Below, piece after piece: positions 27,483 through 56,612 of a DNA stretch of 64,000 nt. Position numbers and translations under genes: made by a program. This stretch comes from the human T2T-CHM13v2.0 reference genome, Homo sapiens. The DNA lies in the NCBI GenBank assembly GCA_009914755.4, contig CP068257.2:41120001-41184000 (forward strand), written 5' to 3'. Position 1 is the stretch's first letter; the number at the start of each line of letters is the position of its first letter. Below the pieces are notes generated by a model. That model was not told the DNA's origin. It made no database searches and was given only the letters and a program-made list of their open reading frames with translations.

Positions 27483-27766
27483 GTGAGTGCCAAACCCGCC
27501 TTCGGTTCTTCCTGGGCACGTGGTTTCATCCAGTTCCACAGGAATGGAGGGAATGGATCACCAGGGCACCTTCCGGATGGCACTGCGCTCCCTGTGAGCA
27601 GAGGTGACATTTCCCCGGGAGTTCTGTGAGGACACTCAGCCTGTCTCTGTTCCTCCTTCCACCAAAACCTTCTTTACGCCCGAGCTACTCCTGCTCTGAT
27701 AAGCAAGGAGTAGCTTATCAGTGAGACTCTGCCATCATCAAGCAAAGCAGCATGTCCTAAAGCAGC

Positions 27767-28285
27767 GGTGTGTGGGAGCGTGTGTGTGTGTGTGGGAGCG
27801 TGTGTGTGTGTGAGAGTGAGTATGGGGGTGTGGATGTGAGTGTGTGTGAGTGTGGGGTGTGGATGTGAGCATGGGGGTGTCTGCATGTGTTTGTGAGTGG
27901 GTGTGTGGATGTAAATGTGTGGGAGCGTGTGTGTGTGTGAGTGTGGGGTGTGGGTGTGAGCATGGGGGTATCTGAGTTTACGGGTGGGTGTGTGTGAATG
28001 TGTGGTGGGAGTGTGTGGGGTGGGAGTAGGAGTGTGGAGGTGTGTCTGTGTGTGTCAGTGTGGATGTGTGCATGTGTATATCTGGATGTGGGGTGTGTCT
28101 GTGTGTGGGTGTGTGTGAGGGTGTGTGTGCATGTGTGTATCTGTGGATGTGAGGTGTGTGTGCATGTGTGTATCTGGATGTGGGGGTGTGTGAGGGTGGA
28201 TGTGTGCATGTGTGTGTGTGGATGTGGGGTGTGTGAGTGTGTGGTGTGTGAGTGGGTGTGTGCATGTGGGTGTCTGCCTGTGTGA
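27767..28285. repeat. About 520-bp imperfect TG-rich repeat ((TG)n interrupted by GGGAGCG / GAGTG / GGAT motifs) in the intron between exons 27396..27482 and 28725..28829
   Basis: ggtgtgtgggagcgtgtgtgtgtgtgtgggagcgtgtgtgtgtgtgagagtgagtatgggggtgtggatgtgagtgtgtgtgag...gtgtgtgcatgtgggtgtctgcctgtgtgaatatg. The antisense ORF through it reads a His/Thr-rich protein (low-complexity artefact). Confidence 0.95.
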
Positions 28286-39181: not shown

Positions 39182-39277
39182 CTCTTCCCCATGGTTGAGG
39201 AGATCATGCTGCAGCCACTTTGGGAATCCCGAGATCGCTACGAGGAGCTGAAGCGGATAGATGACGCCATGAAAGAG
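39182..39277 (+). CDS. PDE9A: PDE9A exon encoding [32 protein letters not shown] (96 nt)
   Basis: Acceptor gtgtgtctctcccAG|ctc at 39180-39181. Donor GAG|GTAAAA at 39278. Confidence 0.9.
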
Positions 39278-40119
39278 GTAAAACACACTGAGAAGAGCCT
39301 GCCTTCCTTGCGGCAAGCAGGCACGCTGCCCTCCGCACTCCCGACTCCAGAAGCTTGGACGTGCCAAGCAGGGCACCACTGAAGGCCCCGTGGACAGGCA
39401 CACGTGTACCTTCCATCAGAAAGCCTGGCTCAGTAAAATTAGGGAATGCGATGAGGGAAACCAAAACTGCATTCGCCAAGAACACGTCAGGTCTCAGTAG
39501 CTTCGAGGGAGTTTACTGGCCGTGCCCTTCACAAGAATCACAACTGTCACCCACACCTGTGGACACCCAGGTGTCTTTGGGTGTATCAGCCGCCGTTAGA
39601 GCATCTGGGACCCCTCAGAGTACAGTGCCTGGCCTGGCCCCAGGGCTGACTTGTTCAGAGGAGGCCATGGGGTAGAAAGGGGCCCTCCCCTGGCACGGGA
39701 ACAAAGCGACCACCCACCTGCCAGCTCCCGGGCCCAGAACACACACCGGCACCTCTCAGGGGCCAGGGAGCCTGGGGCTGGCTTTAGGTTGCTGCTGGAC
39801 AGATATCATTTTGGAGGAAGGGGTCCAGGTCACAGCCTCAGGGCCCACGCAGTCTGTCTACGGATTCCCCCCGGCTGTCTGCTGTCCTGCTGCCCATGGT
39901 GTGGCCTCTGCCCCTCCCAGCCTCCTGCCTCCTCCCTCCAGCGCCCCCAGGCAGCTAGAACAGTCTTACTACTCCTGCAGGGTTTGACCCCTCCTGGCCT
40001 TGGCCGGTGTTGCCTCTGCCACCCCCGCTCCCCACAGTGCCACTGAAGCACCCTCCAAGGCCCGTCAGTCAGGGCTCCCCTAGTTACTGTGCCCACCACC
40101 CCGTCTTTTCTGCCTGGGC

Positions 40120-41760: not shown

Positions 41761-42003
41761 GAGGCTCTTAAAGAAGGGGAACATGCTTTAGTTAATAGAA
41801 AAACATCAATAATTAGCATATGTATCACTTATAAGAGTAAGTACTTTTTAAAAGTGCAATTGAAGTACTGAAAACTTTTCACAAATCACGTGTTTGCTTT
41901 ATATGGCTTTGAGCATTTTCCTCTGTACTTGTTGATACTAGTCATTCAGCTCACGGGGAATGCAGAGCAGCCGTTTGTTCACCTCATAATAAGGTCACAC
42001 TAA

Positions 42004-42570
<567 letters not shown>

Positions 42571-43758: not shown

Positions 43759-43772
43759 GAGACTGTGCCTGA
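43759..43772 (+). CDS. PDE9A: PDE9A terminal coding segment (G)DCA followed by the TGA stop at 43770-43772
   Basis: Acceptor tcgtttcccttcttccAG|ga at 43757-43758. G+GA gives Gly, then GAC TGT GCC TGA. This is the C-terminus ...NSEGDCA* of PDE9A. Confidence 0.88.
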
Positions 43773-43920
43773 GGAAAGCGGGGGGCGTGGCTGCAGTTCT
43801 GGACGGGCTGGCCGAGCTGCGCGGGATCCTTGTGCAGGGAAGAGCTGCCCTGGGCACCTGGCACCACAAGACCATGTTTTCTAAGAACCATTTTGTTCAC
43901 TGATACAAAAAAAAAAAAAG
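43773..43920 (+). other. PDE9A: PDE9A 3'UTR, at least this far. The true 3' end is uncertain.
   Basis: Sequence immediately after the stop codon in the terminal exon. A genomic A13 tract lies at 43907-43919. There is no AATAAA or ATTAAA within 250 nt of the stop. TATAAA at about 44601 and ATTAAA at about 44946 are the first recognisable hexamers. Confidence 0.4.
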
Positions 43921-45291
43921 GAATTCATGATGCTGTACAGAATTTTATTTTTAAACTGTCTTTTAAATAATATATTCTTATACGGAAATGGGTACTGTAC
44001 TTCTTCTTTGGTAGAGTTGTGTATGCTGCTTCCGGTAAGTTCTCTCATGGAGACGAAGGACACTGTGCTTTTCCCCCAGATGTATCTTAGAGCAATTGAC
44101 CAGTGTGATGCGGTGCGTACGTCCCTGTAAATTCAGCATTAAATGTCAGCACGGTGCCCTGAGTGCAAGGACATGCACGGGTCCTGTGTTTCTGAGCAGA
44201 GGGGGACGTCAGTGCCGTGTGTGGGACATCTGGGGACTGAGGCAGGTTGGCCAGACTGTAGGTCGTGTGTCGGAGCAAACGCACCCATGACCATGGGGAC
44301 AACACACACTGGGTGCTCATGTGGAGGAAGGCTGGTGACTTCACACTTAAATCCTCAGATAAGGAAAAGAGACACATGTATTCAGCACGTCTGAGGGTCT
44401 CTATCTCGGGAGGAGAGACGGCCCTCCCTTCCTGCCTTTGTTTTGGTAACAAGCACAGGGGACATTCTGGGTGGCACTGTGTCCACACAGGGGACCCAGC
44501 CCCCGGCTTGTTCATGGTCAGGCTCTTGTTGCTGGGACAGTCGCACCCCTGAGCTCTCACTGAGACCGCCCGCATGCGGTGGACTCCTGGAGACCCAATT
44601 TATAAAAAGCAAGGAAAAGGCTGCTGGCTGTGTCCCCTGGGCTGTGGGCTCCATCTCCCCTGCGCTCTAGAGACAGAACCACCTCCCGAAGCGCTTCACC
44701 CTACAGAGCTCACCTTTAAAGCCACTGGCGTGGTCTGAGCTTAGTAAACATTTCATTTCTGTGTTGGGTCACTTTCCTTGGGGCATTTGTTTCCTTTTGG
44801 TGAATTCCAGAATATTACTTCCCACCTTCAAATAATTCATTTTTTACCTGTAAAATTTTCCATCTCGAATCCAGCCGAATACAGATAAGGGACCTTGATT
44901 TCTACACCCCTTCTTGTTTCTGCTTTTGTTTTTCATTTGAATCCTATTAAAGCCAATAGATATGGCAACGTTGGCAAAAATAGAAGCAAAACGTAGGCGT
45001 GCGGATATTGATGCCCTCCACCTTCCTGCCAGCCTCTATGGGGGATGATTACCTGCTCTCCTCATCTGTAACAAGGCTCTTTCAACAGCACCTTCATCTG
45101 CTACATTACTTGGAATGCACATCTCACTAAACGGTGCCCCTCATCAAACTCCATACAACACTTCCTTGAATTTTACTATCATAAACAGAAACAATCACAT
45201 GCACACACATGGACATGTATACACTCCTACACATCAGCACACTTCCTCTGGTTCTAGGCTATACTGCATCCTGAAACAATTAAATGACTGA

Positions 45292-45603
<312 letters not shown>

Positions 45604-46977
45604 GACGGCATCTACTGTTAGTCCTGGTTGGTGTGCAGCCAGCCTGGTCTCCATGCACGGGACCCCCAGAAAGCCCACCAACCCACCCTCCTGTCACACA
45701 GAGCAGTCCCTGAGGCCCCACGGTTGGAGGCCACGTCCACCCTGGTCAGCCTGCACACCCAGAGCCTGCCCGCACCAGGAGGCAGCCACACGGATGAGCT
45801 GAATCATGGGCTGCATGTGGCAGTGGAGGCTCAGGACAAGACAGATGTGCCTACGGCCCCGGAGAGCTCTGGGTCCAGCAGCAGAGGCGTTCCCCCAGGC
45901 CTGGGGGCATGCCCAGCATAGGGAGTGAGTGTGCAGACACAGGGTCCCACCCCCATGAGCACAACCCACTGAACAAGACGCCCCTCTGGGGTGAGCGGCA
46001 CCATCTCCACCTAGGATGATGTGTTTCCAAGTGAACTCTCACCCGACAATCAGTATTAAGTCAGCATGAAGGGTAAAGATGTTTACAGCTGAGCCACATG
46101 CACGTCAGGAGACAGGAGCAGCAATGCCTGGGGCTTTCCACGGTGAGCTCCCAGCACACAGCAAGCATGTCGCCAGAAAGAACAGAAAGTTCACAAAGGG
46201 AGGGCCAGCCTGTGCACAGCCTAGCACCGTCCTGGGAGGCCATCATCACCTGTGCTCCTCTGAGAGGACAGGAAGATGCTGTTTTCCACTTTTTTCTCCC
46301 CAAGACCGTTTATTAGCAATTGAAGGAACAACGCATGTATCAAAGACTGGATTTGAGAAATTCCAACAAATCTGCCCCCTCGCAGTTGGGAGCTGGCATC
46401 GTGCAATCTTCGGAATGCAGCCTCTGGCTCTCCCATCAAAAGGCAATGCAGCCCCCTGTGATTTCAGCTTTGACCTTGTGGGTAATAAAAGAAGGAAAGA
46501 GGAATGTCTGCTACTGGAATCCTGGATGGGGTCCCCGCGGCCGAATCCCCCCTCCCGTCCCCTCCTGTGTCACCTGTCATGTCTCAGACTTTGACCGCCT
46601 CCCGCAGCTTCCTTTTATTCGTAATGTCTAAAGCCAACCCAAGCGTCTTTGCCGGCTGACGTCTTAGCCAAATCATGTGGGAAACCCGTGAAGCAGAACT
46701 GACCGCTGTGAGGGCTGGGAGTACACTGGGCATCTGAAATACTTCAGCCCAGGAAAACGTCCATCAGTGGACACCGTCGGTTCCCAGGTGGCCTCTGGAA
46801 CAGGAAAGCAGTCACCCCCTCGTCCGATCCCACAGGAAACCTCATTCCACTCTAGTGGCAGTGGCTGGGGCTAGATCCCCCTGAGCCAGGAGACGACGGG
46901 CAGTGCCCGGACAAGGCTGTACTCTGCCCACAGCTCCTCCACTGTGGCTATGAGGGAGGTTTAAAAATCTCAGTCCA

Positions 46978-47835
46978 GTGGGGGGGGTCAGCCCCCTGCC
47001 CGGCCAGCCGCCCCGTCTGGGAGGGAGGTGGGGGGGTCAGCCCCCGCCCGGCCAGCCGCCCCGTCTGGGAGGGAGGTGGGGGGGTCAGCCCCCCGCCCGG
47101 CCAGCCGCCCCGTCTGGGAGGGAGGTGGGGGGGTCAGCCCCCCGCCCGGCCAGCCACCCCGTCTGGGAGGGAGGTGGGGGGGTCAGCCCCCCGCCCGGCC
47201 AGCCGCCCCATCCAGGAGGTGAGGGGCGCTTCTGCCCGGCCGCCCCTACTGGGAAGTGAGGAGCCCCTCTGCCCGGCCACGACCCCGTCTGGGAGGTGTG
47301 CCCAGCGGCTCATTGGGGATGGGCCATGATGACAATGGCGGTTTTGTGGAATAGAAAGGCGGGAAGGGTGGGGAAAAAATTGAGAAATCGGATGGTTGCC
47401 GGGTCTGTGTGGATAGAAGTAGACATGGGAGACTTTTCATTTTGTTCTGTACTAAGAAAAATTCTTCTGCCTTGGGATCCTGTTGATCTGTGACCTTACC
47501 CCCAACCCTGTGTTCTCTGAAACATGTGCTGTGTCCACTCAGGGTTGAATGGATTAAGGGCGGTGCAAGATGTGCTTTGTTAAACAGACGCTTGAAGGCA
47601 GCATGCGCGTTAAGAGTCATCACCACTCCCTAATCTCAAGTACCCAGGGACACAAACACTGCGGAAGGCCGCAGGGTCCTCTGCCTAGGAAAACCAGAGA
47701 CCTTTGTTCACTTGTTTATCTGCTGACCTTCCCTCCACTATTGTCCTATGACCCTGCCAAATCCCCCTCTGCGAGAAACACCCAAGAATGATCAATAAAA
47801 AAAAAATAAAAAATAAATAAATAAATAAATAAAAT
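46978..47835 (+). mobile_element. SVA retrotransposon, 5'-truncated (GC-rich VNTR of about 57-bp units 46978-47290, SINE-R/HERV-K-derived region about 47290-47795, AATA-rich poly(A) tail). Perfect 14-15-bp TSD aaaatctcagtcca at 46964-46977 and 47837-47850.
   Basis: VNTR: (gggggggtcagccccccgcccggccagccgccccgtctgggagggaggtg)x4-5. SINE-R: ...tgtgctgtgtccactcagggttgaatggattaagggcggtgcaagatgtgctttgttaaacagacgcttgaaggcagcatgcgcgttaagagtcatcaccactccctaatctcaagtacccagggacacaaacactgcggaaggccgcagggtcctctgcctaggaaaaccagagacctttgttcacttgtttatctgctgaccttccctccactattgtcctatgaccctgccaaatccccctctgcgagaaacacccaagaatgatcaataaaaaaaaaa. The flanking direct repeats are identical. Confidence 0.9.
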
Positions 47836-48600
47836 AAAAATCTCAGTCCAAAGGCTTTCACCGTAGTCTGTCTAAGGGACAGATAACATCGTCTCTCTGA
47901 ATTTGGGAGGGGACTGTTCTCTGTTGGTAGCCAAAAGGGGCCCAGCAAGGTGCTAGGGTTCCAGTCTCCCTGAGTCCTCAGGCAGGTCTTCCCAGCCCCC
48001 ACCCTGGGACTCCCTGCCCTGCTGCAGGGGAACGTGAGGGTCAGGGGTCCCCAGATTCCTGGGAGCTGGGGCCGGTGCCCTGGCAGAAACACGGCCTCAG
48101 GCAGGGTCCAGGGCCTGTGGGGGTGAGTCACCTTGTTATGGGCTGAATTCCCTCCCCAAAACTTACGTCCAAGCCCAACCTGGTGCCTCCCAGTACCGTA
48201 TTTGGAGACAGTGCCTTTAAAAGGTGGTTAAGATAACATGAGCTGACTGGGGTGGGCCCTGAGCCACTTTGACTGAGTCTTACAAGAAGAGGAGGTCGGG
48301 GCACAGATGCACATGAAGGGCGCCAGGGAAGGACAGACCCTGACACACAGAGGAGTGGGGACTCAGCAGAAGCCAGCCCTGCCAACACTTGTCTCAGACT
48401 TTGAGAGGTAAGTGTCTGTCGTTTAAGCCCCCCGCCAAGCTCACACACACACACACCTGTGTGCCTCGCTAGGGCTGCCCCAGCAGACTCACACATCACA
48501 CCTCCCTCACCACCGAGTCCCTGGGCAGCAACGTGGGCCCGGCTCACAAGCAGTGCTGGAGACAGCTTGAGCTTGGGTTGACTGCGCCAGCATAGCATGA

Positions 48601-49275: not shown

Positions 49276-49934
49276 TCAACAGTGGCCAGGTGGTGAACTA
49301 GCCACCTTGATGTCATCTGTGGAACTTTGCAGCTTGATCTCCAGGCTTGGTCTGTCTCAAGATTAGCCCCTGGAACGTCTAAGAAGGTGCATAATGAGAT
49401 GCGTGCATAATGAGATGCGCACATACAGTTAGAGAACTGTGAAGCGGGTATAGACAGTGAGAAAGGCGGGGACGTGAAGCCTACTTTAAGGCTAAGGGAA
49501 AAGGCTTCTGCAGTTCGCTTCAAGGTTATATCTTAAAATCCAAGAGAAAGGGGAAAAAAAGTTAAGATGCATTTTGAAGTTAAGCTGCCTGGTTACAAGT
49601 GAAAATACATAAGAGTACTGGTTTTTTTCCGGTTAATCCTAACTTTTCTAATATATTTTGCTAGCAGATATTTAAAATCTGGTGGTTTAGCCAAAGAATT
49701 TGGGACAGCAAGACTATACAATCTTCCATCCGCTGCAAAGAGATGTTCGTTTTTTCTCAGCGTTTCTGAGAAGCTGGAAAACAAGGTGAGCTGCCGCCTT
49801 GGACACCCTCCTCTTAATTCTGGTTCCTTCCTGCTCGACATGGGGACGGGACAGTCCGACGCTCCCTCTCATGGGAATGTATTTGCAGACATCATATCAT
49901 GGAAAATACTAAACACAAGTGTTGCCTCAGAAGC

Positions 49935-50115
49935 TCACGATGAGCCGGGTTCACGCCGGTGTAATTCTGCGGGGGCCGGACCCTGAATCTCATGCACGCG
50001 CGGCTGCGAAGGCGACGCAGCTTCTGCCTCTGAGCCGCCTCCTTCGATACATCCCGTGGGAGCGGGAGCCACACTGAGCGCCAGGTCTGCGGCCAGCCGG
50101 GTGGGAAACAGGCGC
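49935..50115. promoter_or_regulatory. Short CpG-island-like segment (about 20 CpG in about 180 bp) in otherwise CpG-depleted intergenic DNA. Candidate unannotated promoter or regulatory element.
   Basis: acgatgagccgggttcacgccggtgtaattctgcgggggccggaccctgaatctcatgcacgcgcggctgcgaaggcgacgcagcttctgcctctgagccgcctccttcgatacatcccgtgggagcgggagccacactgagcgccaggtctgcggccagccgggtgggaaacaggcgctgc. Confidence 0.3.
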
Positions 50116-50490
50116 TGCTGCCAGCAAGCTCCTCCCACTCTGCTCACCTGCCCCGAGGTTCCCAGAAGTTCTCAATCAGTACCATGTCCTTTCCCCTTCT
50201 CGAAGAAAAACACTGTTGGCAATGGAACAGCGCCTCCCATTATCCTCCTGTCCTCACCAGGAACAGGCTCCCCAGACAGCAGACACTGTTTTCCGCGAGC
50301 CGGAGGCAGCCAGATTTGAGCCCAGATACCGCCATGGCCACTCCTGCGAAACCCTAGAAAGCCAGGGACATATTCAGGGGACTTCTCTTGCTCCAAGAAG
50401 CCGTGCCTGGCAGTCAGCGCCTGCACACAGGCAGCTCCCATGGCAGGAGCATGGGTGGCCAAAGGGGCCAAGGTTCTCTGTTGTCAGTCC

Positions 50491-56033: not shown

Positions 56034-56424
<391 letters not shown>

Positions 56425-56612
56425 TTTTGCAATCTACCAGAGTGAGGAAGATGGCTAAAAGCAAGATTGGGAGTCATTCTTCAAGCATCTGTCTTTAAAT
56501 GCCCTTTTCAGCTTTCTCTATCACCAAGTCCCTGCTGCTTTTTCTAACACTTTCAAGAGCTACTTGACTCCAGGGTCAGGGCACACCACAACCCTTTATT
56601 ATAAAGAACAGC

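What the first reader, a model, noticed from the sequence alone, without database searches (positions are those of the whole stretch)
46964..47850. 5'-truncated SVA retrotransposon with perfect 14-bp TSD, 3.2 kb downstream of PDE9A
The interval contains a GC-rich VNTR ((...gcccggccagccgccccgtctgggagggaggtggggggg...) x4-5), then a SINE-R (HERV-K env/LTR-derived) segment, then an AATA-rich poly(A) tail. It is flanked by an identical aaaatctcagtcca direct repeat. This is the signature of an SVA insertion by L1-mediated retrotransposition. SVAs are hominid-specific and the youngest active human retroelements. They are CpG-rich, frequently polymorphic, and can act as enhancers, poly(A) donors or methylation nucleation sites. 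An insertion this close to the PDE9A 3' end could influence 3' processing or expression.
Basis: partly seen in the sequence, partly recalled or inferred. Interest (0 to 1): 0.5.

Follow-up and report, generated by a model that had tools for sequence, protein, structure and literature searches.

The report
Truncated SVA retrotransposon downstream of PDE9A
This is an ordinary, dead-on-arrival copy of the hominid SVA retrotransposon, lacking its 5' part, that the L1 machinery pasted in 3.2 kb after the PDE9A stop codon; nothing here shows that it does anything.

Summary
An 858-bp insert (46978-47835, + strand) lies between perfect direct repeats.

The insert contains:
- four 48-49-bp G-rich VNTR units plus three shorter units;
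- a complete SINE-R, 96.85% identical to the consensus of 17 independent SVA copies I retrieved;
- AATAAA and a degenerate A/T tail.

The pre-insertion site GGTTT/AAAAA is an L1 endonuclease site. There is no hexamer or Alu-like domain.

New detail: the SINE-R is of SVA_D type plus 12 clustered changes. Their number, position and overlap with gorilla gg_SVA_DRb fit the published description of human-specific SVA_E. This assignment is probable, but I could not check it against the SVA_E consensus.

PDE9A is confirmed. Four spliced exons reproduce its C-terminus at 100% identity. The "3.2 kb" is the distance from the stop codon, not from the transcript end.

The empty site in apes, polymorphism in humans and any effect on PDE9A could not be tested.

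Verdict: real, correctly interpreted, already-known kind, low interest.

The parts
46963..46977 (+). 5' copy of the target-site duplication AAAAATCTCAGTCCA. The exact repeat also includes T at 46962. The first-strand nick is inferred between 46962 and 46963: top strand GGTTT/AAAAA, bottom strand 5'-TTTTT/AAA-3'.
   Evidence: The motif matches the L1 EN consensus 5'-TTTT/AA-3' listed as an SVA hallmark in PMC3287187.
46978..47300 (+). 3' portion of the SVA VNTR. It starts with a 3-nt remnant (GTG) of a cut unit. Four G-rich units of 49, 48, 49 and 49 bp follow (46981-47175). Then come units of 47, 38 and 40 bp; the last is the terminal unit abutting SINE-R. The VNTR/SINE-R boundary is approximate (+/-10 bp).
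   Evidence: TRF gives period 49, 5.0 copies, 95% matches. The segment aligns to the VNTR 3' ends of L001 and L022. Unit sizes fit the 36-42 and 49-51 bp classes (PMC3287187) and the K-type 49-bp arrays of SVA_D-F (PMC4432496).
47301..47799 (+). Complete SINE-R domain (HERV-K env/LTR5-derived), ending in the poly(A) signal. The internal LTR deletion junction typical of SINE-R lies at about 47695-47697. Twelve subfamily-type changes lie at 47300-47414. Four private changes lie at 47513, 47547, 47589 and 47607.
   Evidence: It is 96.85% identical to the majority consensus of 17 copies and 98.4% identical to L022. A split alignment to L001 skips about 364 bp of LTR-like sequence. The junction 24-mer is found in 42 other contigs.
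47794..47799 (+). AATAAA polyadenylation signal of the SVA.
47800..47835 (+). Poly(A) tail, now degenerate: A runs interrupted by T, in an (AAAT)n-like pattern.
47836..47850 (+). 3' copy of the target-site duplication AAAAATCTCAGTCCA.
43759..43772 (+). Context only: start of the last coding exon of PDE9A (G-D-C-A-stop). The stop codon TGA is at 43770-43772, 3190 bp upstream of the TSD. The 3' UTR continues past an A13 run (43907-43919); the next poly(A) signal, ATTAAA, is at 44138.
   Evidence: Translations of four spliced exons match PDB 4qge_A residues 431-533 at 100% identity. An earlier exon at about 29273 matches PDE9A.

Best explanation
An RNA transcribed from a full-length SVA source element, most likely of the human-specific SVA_E subfamily, was captured in trans by L1 ORF2p. 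The L1 endonuclease nicked the bottom strand at 5'-TTTTT/AAA-3' (window 46962/46963). The exposed T-run primed reverse transcription on the SVA poly(A) tail. Copying stopped, or the cDNA was joined, inside the VNTR, so the (CCCTCT)n hexamer, the Alu-like domain and the 5' VNTR were never integrated. A second nick 15 bp downstream produced the AAAAATCTCAGTCCA duplication. The result is an 858-bp element in the same orientation as PDE9A, 3.19 kb after its stop codon. Shown here: the anatomy, the homology and the target-site features. Inferred: the copy cannot retrotranspose efficiently because it lacks its 5' end, including the 5' domains that promote mobilisation. Also inferred: it is most probably kept as methylated, ZNF91/TRIM28-bound heterochromatin, like other SVAs, with no demonstrated effect on PDE9A.
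For: The direct repeat is exact for 16 bp and unique in the window. The insert is bounded precisely by it and ends in AATAAA plus a 36-nt A-rich tail. The target GGTTT/AAAAA fits the L1 EN consensus, and a 15-bp TSD fits the 4-20 bp range; both are listed as SVA hallmarks in PMC3287187. The 48-49-bp G-rich VNTR units and the shorter terminal units are collinear with the VNTR 3' ends of the full-length SVAs L001 and L022. SINE-R is full length, 96.85% identical to a consensus built from 17 independent copies, and carries the SINE-R-specific LTR deletion junction found in 42 other contigs. There is no CCCTCT array anywhere in the window, and unique sequence lies directly 5' of the TSD. Truncation inside the VNTR is common: 44 of 127 truncated polymorphic SVAs (PMC10681720). 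For the subfamily, identity is 95.9% to the printed SVA_D consensus against 86.8% to the SVA_C 5' half. Twelve lineage changes are clustered at 47300-47414 and are shared with L022. Seven of them are identical to gorilla gg_SVA_DRb. PMC6139936 states that gg_SVA_DRb shares eight diagnostic substitutions with SVA_E, and that E differs from D at 12 residues, 11 of them 5' in SINE-R. For silencing, SVAs of subfamilies A-F are heavily methylated and carry ZNF91/TRIM28-dependent H3K9me3 in neural progenitors (PMC11479940). Deleting the hexamer and Alu-like region lowered SVA mobilisation by 32-46% in a construct driven by a CMV promoter (PMC3287187).
Against: Nothing contradicts the SVA/TPRT reading. 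There are four weak points. (1) No SVA_E consensus was available, so the subfamily call rests on a verbal description and on the gorilla relative. My count in the published SINE-R frame is 10 changes plus 2 just upstream, against the published '11 + 1'. (2) Four private substitutions in 507 bp and a tail broken by T's look rather old for a subfamily I recall as about 3.5 Myr old. Some of these changes may come from the source element. (3) The empty site in other apes was not seen. (4) Methylation, ZNF91 binding and any effect on PDE9A are extrapolated from other SVAs and were not measured at this locus.
Confidence: 0.96

Rival explanations
1. It is an SVA, but of an SVA_D sub-lineage related to the gorilla DRb type rather than SVA_E. 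It would then be an older insertion shared with chimpanzee and/or gorilla.
For: The SINE-R is D-like outside the 12 clustered sites. Seven of those sites are also present in gorilla gg_SVA_DRb, whose founder is placed in the hominine ancestor. The four private substitutions and the degenerate tail suggest some age. My diagnostic count does not match the published one exactly.
Against: At three sites (47320 T, 47378 A, 47414 T) the copy differs from gg_SVA_DRb but agrees with L022, a second contaminant SVA copy, presumably human. It also lacks the two gg_SVA_DRb-specific changes at 47453 and 47637. PMC6139936 lists no human counterpart of gg_SVA_DRb other than SVA_E. Look-ups of the expected hg19/hg38 coordinates found nothing in that paper's list of SVA_D elements. 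That evidence is weak, because the coordinates come from my memory of the PDE9A position.
Confidence: 0.2
2. It is not a retrotransposition event. Instead, a HERV-K LTR5 fragment lies next to an unrelated GC-rich minisatellite, or an SVA piece was copied at the DNA level by segmental duplication or gene conversion, and the flanking repeat is chance.
For: SINE-R is homologous to the HERV-K LTR5 3' region. L001 shows that SVA/LTR5 hybrids or assembly chimeras exist.
Against: VNTR and SINE-R are joined exactly as in the full-length SVAs L001 and L022. The SINE-R-specific 364-bp deletion is present. The element ends in AATAAA plus an A-tail rather than an LTR terminus. The 15-16-bp repeat sits exactly at both ends, with 0.04 expected by chance. 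The site is an L1 EN motif. None of the 43 other loci matches either flank.
Confidence: 0.02
3. The element is a functional cis-regulatory part of the PDE9A locus. It would act as an alternative poly(A) site for read-through transcripts, as an enhancer or silencer, or as a methylation nucleation point.
For: The element has the same orientation as PDE9A, an intact AATAAA at 47794, and four G-quadruplex motifs in the VNTR. SVAs can affect nearby genes when their heterochromatin is lost (PMC11479940).
Against: There is no locus-specific evidence of any kind. The element lies beyond the 3' UTR, whose candidate ends are the A13 run at 43907 and the ATTAAA at 44138. CpG observed/expected is only 0.48. 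The literature search for SVA together with PDE9A found nothing relevant.
Confidence: 0.05

Closest known systems
SVA_E subfamily of SINE-VNTR-Alu retrotransposons (human-specific, still active)
   Same: VNTR 3' array with 49-bp G-rich units. D-type SINE-R carrying 12 extra changes concentrated at its 5' end. AATAAA plus poly(A) tail. L1-type TSD and target site.
   Different: The copy lacks the hexamer, the Alu-like region and the 5' VNTR. It has four private substitutions and a degenerate tail. It was not compared directly with the Wang 2005/Repbase SVA_E consensus.
SVA_D (Repbase consensus, 'SVA_DR' of Damert 2018)
   Same: Identical to the D-type majority consensus over 47415-47796, apart from four private changes. 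Same VNTR terminal units.
   Different: Twelve substitutions at 47300-47414, seven of them A>G.
Gorilla gg_SVA_DRb subfamily (PMC6139936, Additional file 3)
   Same: Shares seven of the clustered substitutions: 47307, 47316, 47318, 47360, 47366, 47402 and 47411.
   Different: Differs at 47320, 47378 and 47414, and lacks the gorilla-specific changes at 47453 and 47637.
HERV-K (HML-2) LTR5 / solo LTR
   Same: SINE-R derives from the env end and LTR of HERV-K. The window aligns to the LTR-like 3' part of L001.
   Different: About 364 bp of LTR is missing. There is no TG...CA LTR terminus. A VNTR lies upstream. It has a poly(A) tail and a 15-bp TSD, rather than the short TSD of retroviral integration (the last point is from my own knowledge).
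5'-truncated L1 and other L1-mobilised insertions (Alu, processed pseudogenes)
   Same: Same integration mechanism and hallmarks: TTTT/AA target, TSD, A-tail and 5' truncation (PMC3287187).
   Different: The cargo is the non-coding composite SVA RNA.

Membership tests
SVA (SINE-VNTR-Alu) non-LTR retrotransposon | SINE-R domain at the 3' end, HERV-K env/LTR-derived, with the characteristic internal LTR deletion | tested here: met
   The 507-bp segment is 96.85% identical to the consensus of 17 copies. The deletion junction is present, and its 24-mer is shared with 42 other contigs.
SVA (SINE-VNTR-Alu) non-LTR retrotransposon | GC-rich VNTR of 36-42-bp and/or 49-51-bp units directly upstream of SINE-R | tested here: met
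   Units of 49, 48, 49, 49, 47, 38 and 40 bp, collinear with the VNTR ends of L001 and L022. Unit classes are as in PMC3287187.
SVA (SINE-VNTR-Alu) non-LTR retrotransposon | [quoted passage not shown] | tested here: not met
   Both are absent. The 5' TSD abuts the VNTR, and there is no hexamer array in the whole window. This is expected for a 5'-truncated copy: 3180 of 5107 reference SVAs are truncated (PMC10681720). It does not argue against membership.
SVA (SINE-VNTR-Alu) non-LTR retrotransposon | AATAAA and a poly(A) tail at the 3' end | tested here: met
   AATAAA at 47794-47799 and a 36-nt A-rich tail.
SVA (SINE-VNTR-Alu) non-LTR retrotransposon | L1-type integration: 4-20-bp TSD and a 5'-TTTT/AA-3' target | tested here: met
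   15-bp TSD (exact for 16 bp), with bottom strand TTTTT/AAA at the nick (criteria).
SVA (SINE-VNTR-Alu) non-LTR retrotransposon | Hominid-restricted: empty site in outgroup primates | not testable with these tools
   No primate genomes are available. None of the 43 contaminant loci covers this locus.
SVA_E subfamily | Carries the SVA_D (DR) background states rather than SVA_C states | tested here: met
   95.9% identity to the printed SVA_DR consensus against 86.8% to the SVA_C 5' half. The printed sequences contain some machine-reading slips.
SVA_E subfamily | Twelve diagnostic residues relative to SVA_D, 11 of them in the 5' part of SINE-R, eight shared with gorilla gg_SVA_DRb (PMC6139936) | tested here: inconclusive
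   Twelve clustered differences at 47300-47414, shared with L022. Seven are identical to gg_SVA_DRb, and an eighth site is substituted in both but to a different base. Number and position fit, but the SVA_E consensus itself was not available.
SVA_E subfamily | Insertion absent from chimpanzee and gorilla (human-specific) | not testable with these tools
   No ape genome access.
HERV-K (HML-2) solo LTR5 | Complete LTR with its own termini, short retroviral TSD, no poly(A) tail | tested here: not met
   Only the SINE-R subset of the LTR is present, with the 364-bp deletion. It is preceded by a VNTR, followed by an A-tail and flanked by a 15-bp TSD.

The most novel reading that the evidence does not exclude
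If the copy really is SVA_E, it is human-specific. It could then still segregate as a presence/absence variant whose ZNF91-dependent heterochromatin, or whose sense-oriented AATAAA, modulates PDE9A 3' end formation or expression in cis. PDE9A is a drug target.
Probability: 0.05. Interest if true: 0.35.

Novelty: already known. Interest (0 to 1): 0.08.

Why it matters
It matters little by itself. It is one of several thousand SVA copies in the human genome, of a well-understood kind, and standard repeat masking would label it. The practical value is for annotation. The region is repeat-derived, non-coding, G-quadruplex-rich and hard to map. If it is SVA_E, it is a human-lineage insertion next to PDE9A. 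In that case a presence/absence polymorphism and cis effects could be checked cheaply in existing population and long-read data.

Tried and rejected
- Two scans of viral contigs, one for a SINE-R pattern and one for the locus flank, found nothing.
- BLAST of both 500-bp flanks against all 43 retrieved loci found no copy of this locus, filled or empty.
- An automated TSD search in the other loci was unproductive, because most contaminant contigs break inside the SVA.
- Coordinate look-ups returned nothing (one search showed only a small PDF). I searched hg19 about chr21:44,198-44,199 kb and hg38 about 42,778-42,779 kb in the supplements of four SVA papers. Two of those papers had no usable supplement. 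The coordinates come from my memory of the PDE9A position.
- A full-text search for four SVA_E-type sequence strings found no paper.
- A search for SVA together with PDE9A found only an unrelated fish paper.
- A search for ADAR editing of SVA subfamilies gave nothing specific.
- Translating a long stretch directly for a PDB search failed on stop codons. I replaced it with motif-guided exon finding.
- Rfam found no RNA family in 44-50 kb.
- The ORFs listed across the element are mechanical read-throughs of the repeats.
- I first suspected SVA_B and rejected it. SVA_C is still HERV-K-like in the 5' SINE-R, whereas this copy has the D background.
Full report
**Observation**

The sequence at 46964-47850 is as described. 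The 14-mer AAAATCTCAGTCCA occurs exactly twice in the 64-kb window, at 46964-46977 and 47837-47850. Allowing one mismatch, 0.04 matches are expected, and none of 100 dinucleotide-preserving shuffles gave two. Extending the two copies shows exact identity over 16 bp, TAAAAATCTCAGTCCA, at 46962-46977 and 47835-47850.

Tandem Repeats Finder reports 5.0 copies of a 49-bp unit at 46981-47224, with 95% matches and score 437. It also reports an AATAAAAA-type array at 47794-47840. GC content peaks at 0.835 over the repeat.

**Anatomy**

Between the repeats lie 858 bp (46978-47835). The parts, in order, are:
- a 3-nt remnant of a cut VNTR unit;
- four G-rich units of 49, 48, 49 and 49 bp;
- units of 47, 38 and 40 bp;
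- a roughly 500-bp unique segment ending in GATCAATAAA (AATAAA at 47794-47799);
- a 36-nt A-rich tail interrupted by T's.

The top strand of the pre-insertion site reads GGTTT/AAAAATCTCAGTCCA/AAGGC. The bottom strand therefore carries 5'-TTTTT/AAA-3' at the inferred first nick. The staggered second nick lies 15 bp away.

These are the hallmarks listed for L1-mediated SVA insertion: a 5'-TTTT/AA-3' target, a 4-20-bp TSD, a poly(A) tail and 5' truncation (PMC3287187). The T at 46962/47835 that lengthens the exact repeat to 16 bp is more simply read as one of the T interruptions of the tail.

No (CCCTCT)n array exists anywhere in the window, and the 5' flank is unique sequence. So the missing 5' part was never there.

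**Related sequences**

No repeat library was available, so I fished for SVA copies among human contamination in public assemblies. A SINE-R 26-mer hit one contig of an Actinomadura assembly (L001). That contig is a human SVA with hexamer, Alu-like region, VNTR and SINE-R. The 24-mer spanning the SINE-R-specific junction (GGAAAACCAGAGACCTTTGTTCAC) hit 42 metagenome contigs (L002-L043).

- The window element aligns to L001 from the VNTR through SINE-R (89% over 696 columns). The alignment then jumps about 364 bp of LTR5-like sequence, which is the deletion that distinguishes SINE-R from the HERV-K LTR.
- Its 507-bp SINE-R segment aligns full length to 17 loci at 89.5-98.4% identity.
- It differs from their majority consensus at 16 positions, giving 96.85% identity.
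- None of the loci matches either flank, so they are independent copies.

This settles family membership by homology as well as by architecture.

**Subfamily**

The majority consensus equals the Repbase SVA_D consensus printed in Damert 2018 (PMC6139936, Additional file 5). The window copy is 95.9% identical to that print, which contains a few machine-reading slips. It is only 86.8% identical to the 5' half of SVA_C.

Twelve of the 16 differences are shared with one other copy, the full-length element L022. All twelve fall in 115 bp at the 5' end of SINE-R (47300-47414). The older, HERV-K-like copies carry the D state at all twelve sites, so these changes are derived.

Damert 2018 makes three relevant statements:
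- SVA_E carries all SVA_D diagnostic states and differs from SVA_D at 12 diagnostic residues;
- 11 of these 12 are missed by copies truncated in SINE-R, which places them at its 5' end;
- the gorilla subfamily gg_SVA_DRb shares eight of them.

The printed gg_SVA_DRb consensus shares seven of the window's changes exactly, and an eighth site is substituted to a different base.

Number, position and overlap therefore point to SVA_E. That paper, citing Wang et al. 2005, describes SVA_E as human-specific. I rate this assignment at about 0.75-0.8. I never saw the SVA_E consensus itself, and my count in the published frame (10 plus 2 just upstream) is not identical to the published 11 + 1.

The VNTR end, with its 49-bp G-rich units and shorter terminal units, fits the K-type arrays described for SVA_D to SVA_F (PMC4432496).

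**Age**

Four substitutions are private to this copy: 47513, 47547, 47589 and 47607. That is 0.8% of 507 bp. The tail has decayed into A/T repeats.

With only four events, and with unknown variation in the source element, this sets a loose bound of the order of one to several million years (inference). It is compatible with an early SVA_E insertion. It does not decide whether the insertion is fixed in humans.

**Context**

An exon at about 29.27 kb encodes the PDE catalytic motif and matches human PDE9A structures; the 30 residues that belong to the exon are identical. Joining the translations of four downstream exons reproduces residues 431-533 of PDB chain 4qge_A, up to the last residue, at 100% identity.

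The last coding exon starts at 43759, and the stop codon is at 43770-43772.

The 3' UTR contains a genomic A13 run (43907-43919), and the next poly(A) signal, ATTAAA, is at 44138. The true distance from the transcript end is therefore probably 2.8-3.0 kb (inference). The SVA has the same orientation as PDE9A.

**How it works**

The shown steps are the structural ones. The mechanism, capture of an SVA RNA by L1 ORF2p in trans and target-primed reverse transcription with premature 5' termination, follows from established knowledge of this family (PMC3287187).

Truncation inside the VNTR is common. In one study, 44 of 127 truncated polymorphic SVAs ended in the VNTR, and 3180 of 5107 reference copies are truncated (PMC10681720).

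The copy lacks its 5' end, and with it the hexamer/Alu-like domain whose deletion lowered mobilisation by 32-46% in a CMV-promoter-driven construct. I therefore infer that it is not a source element.

By analogy with other SVAs of subfamilies A-F, it is expected to be DNA-methylated and covered by ZNF91/TRIM28-dependent H3K9me3 (PMC11479940). This was not measured here.

Its CpG density is high: 35 CpG in 857 bp, 23 of them in the 312-bp VNTR. Observed/expected is only 0.45-0.48. The VNTR holds four of the six + strand G-quadruplex motifs of the whole window.

No Rfam family matches in 44-50 kb, and the ORFs across the element are artefacts of the repeats.

**Rivals**

- A solo LTR5 next to an unrelated minisatellite, or a DNA-level copy, is excluded by the exact SVA-type VNTR/SINE-R junction, the SINE-R deletion, the A-tail and the precisely placed TSD.
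- An SVA_D-type, older, shared insertion remains possible at about 0.2.
- A regulatory role for PDE9A is not supported by any result and cannot be tested here.

**Verdict**

It is a routine, already-catalogued kind of element. The only added value is the refined TSD, the probable SVA_E assignment and the corrected reference point for the distance to PDE9A. Interest is low.

Noticed in passing
window 47300-47414 (and L022 at the homologous positions): All 12 substitutions separating this SVA_E-like SINE-R from the SVA_D consensus lie within 115 bp, and seven are A>G on the sense strand. The binomial P for the A>G excess is about 0.0015-0.014. This looks like the footprint of an ADAR-type hyper-edited RNA that became a source element. 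A gorilla subfamily, gg_SVA_D4d, shows a similar run of G substitutions.
   Followed up: partly
L001 1-2143 (BMRF01000091.1, Actinomadura cremea JCM 3308 assembly): A contig in a bacterial genome assembly is human DNA. It is a full SVA 5' end, VNTR and SINE-R that continues through the ~364 bp normally deleted in SINE-R to the LTR5 terminus. It is either a real SVA/LTR5 hybrid locus or an assembly chimera of contaminant reads.
   Followed up: partly
L002-L043: Forty-two metagenome contigs, including marine and sediment assemblies, carry human-type SVA SINE-R sequence. This indicates human DNA contamination.
   Followed up: no
window 43907-43919 and 44138: The PDE9A 3' UTR contains a genomic A13 run with no upstream AATAAA, which is a likely internal-priming site for oligo-dT cDNAs. 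The next poly(A) signal, ATTAAA, is 220 bp further on.
   Followed up: no
window 47019-47182: Four of the six + strand G-quadruplex motifs of the entire 64-kb window sit in the SVA VNTR.
   Followed up: no
window 27751-28050, 39201-39500, 41951-42350, 49751-50250: These are CpG-island-like stretches (GC >= 0.55, observed/expected >= 0.65). The last lies about 2 kb downstream of the SVA. The one at 41951-42350 overlaps Alu sequence.
   Followed up: no
window 56380-56428, minus strand: An (AAAT)n-like A-rich tract resembles the SVA tail. It is probably the decayed tail of another retroelement.
   Followed up: no
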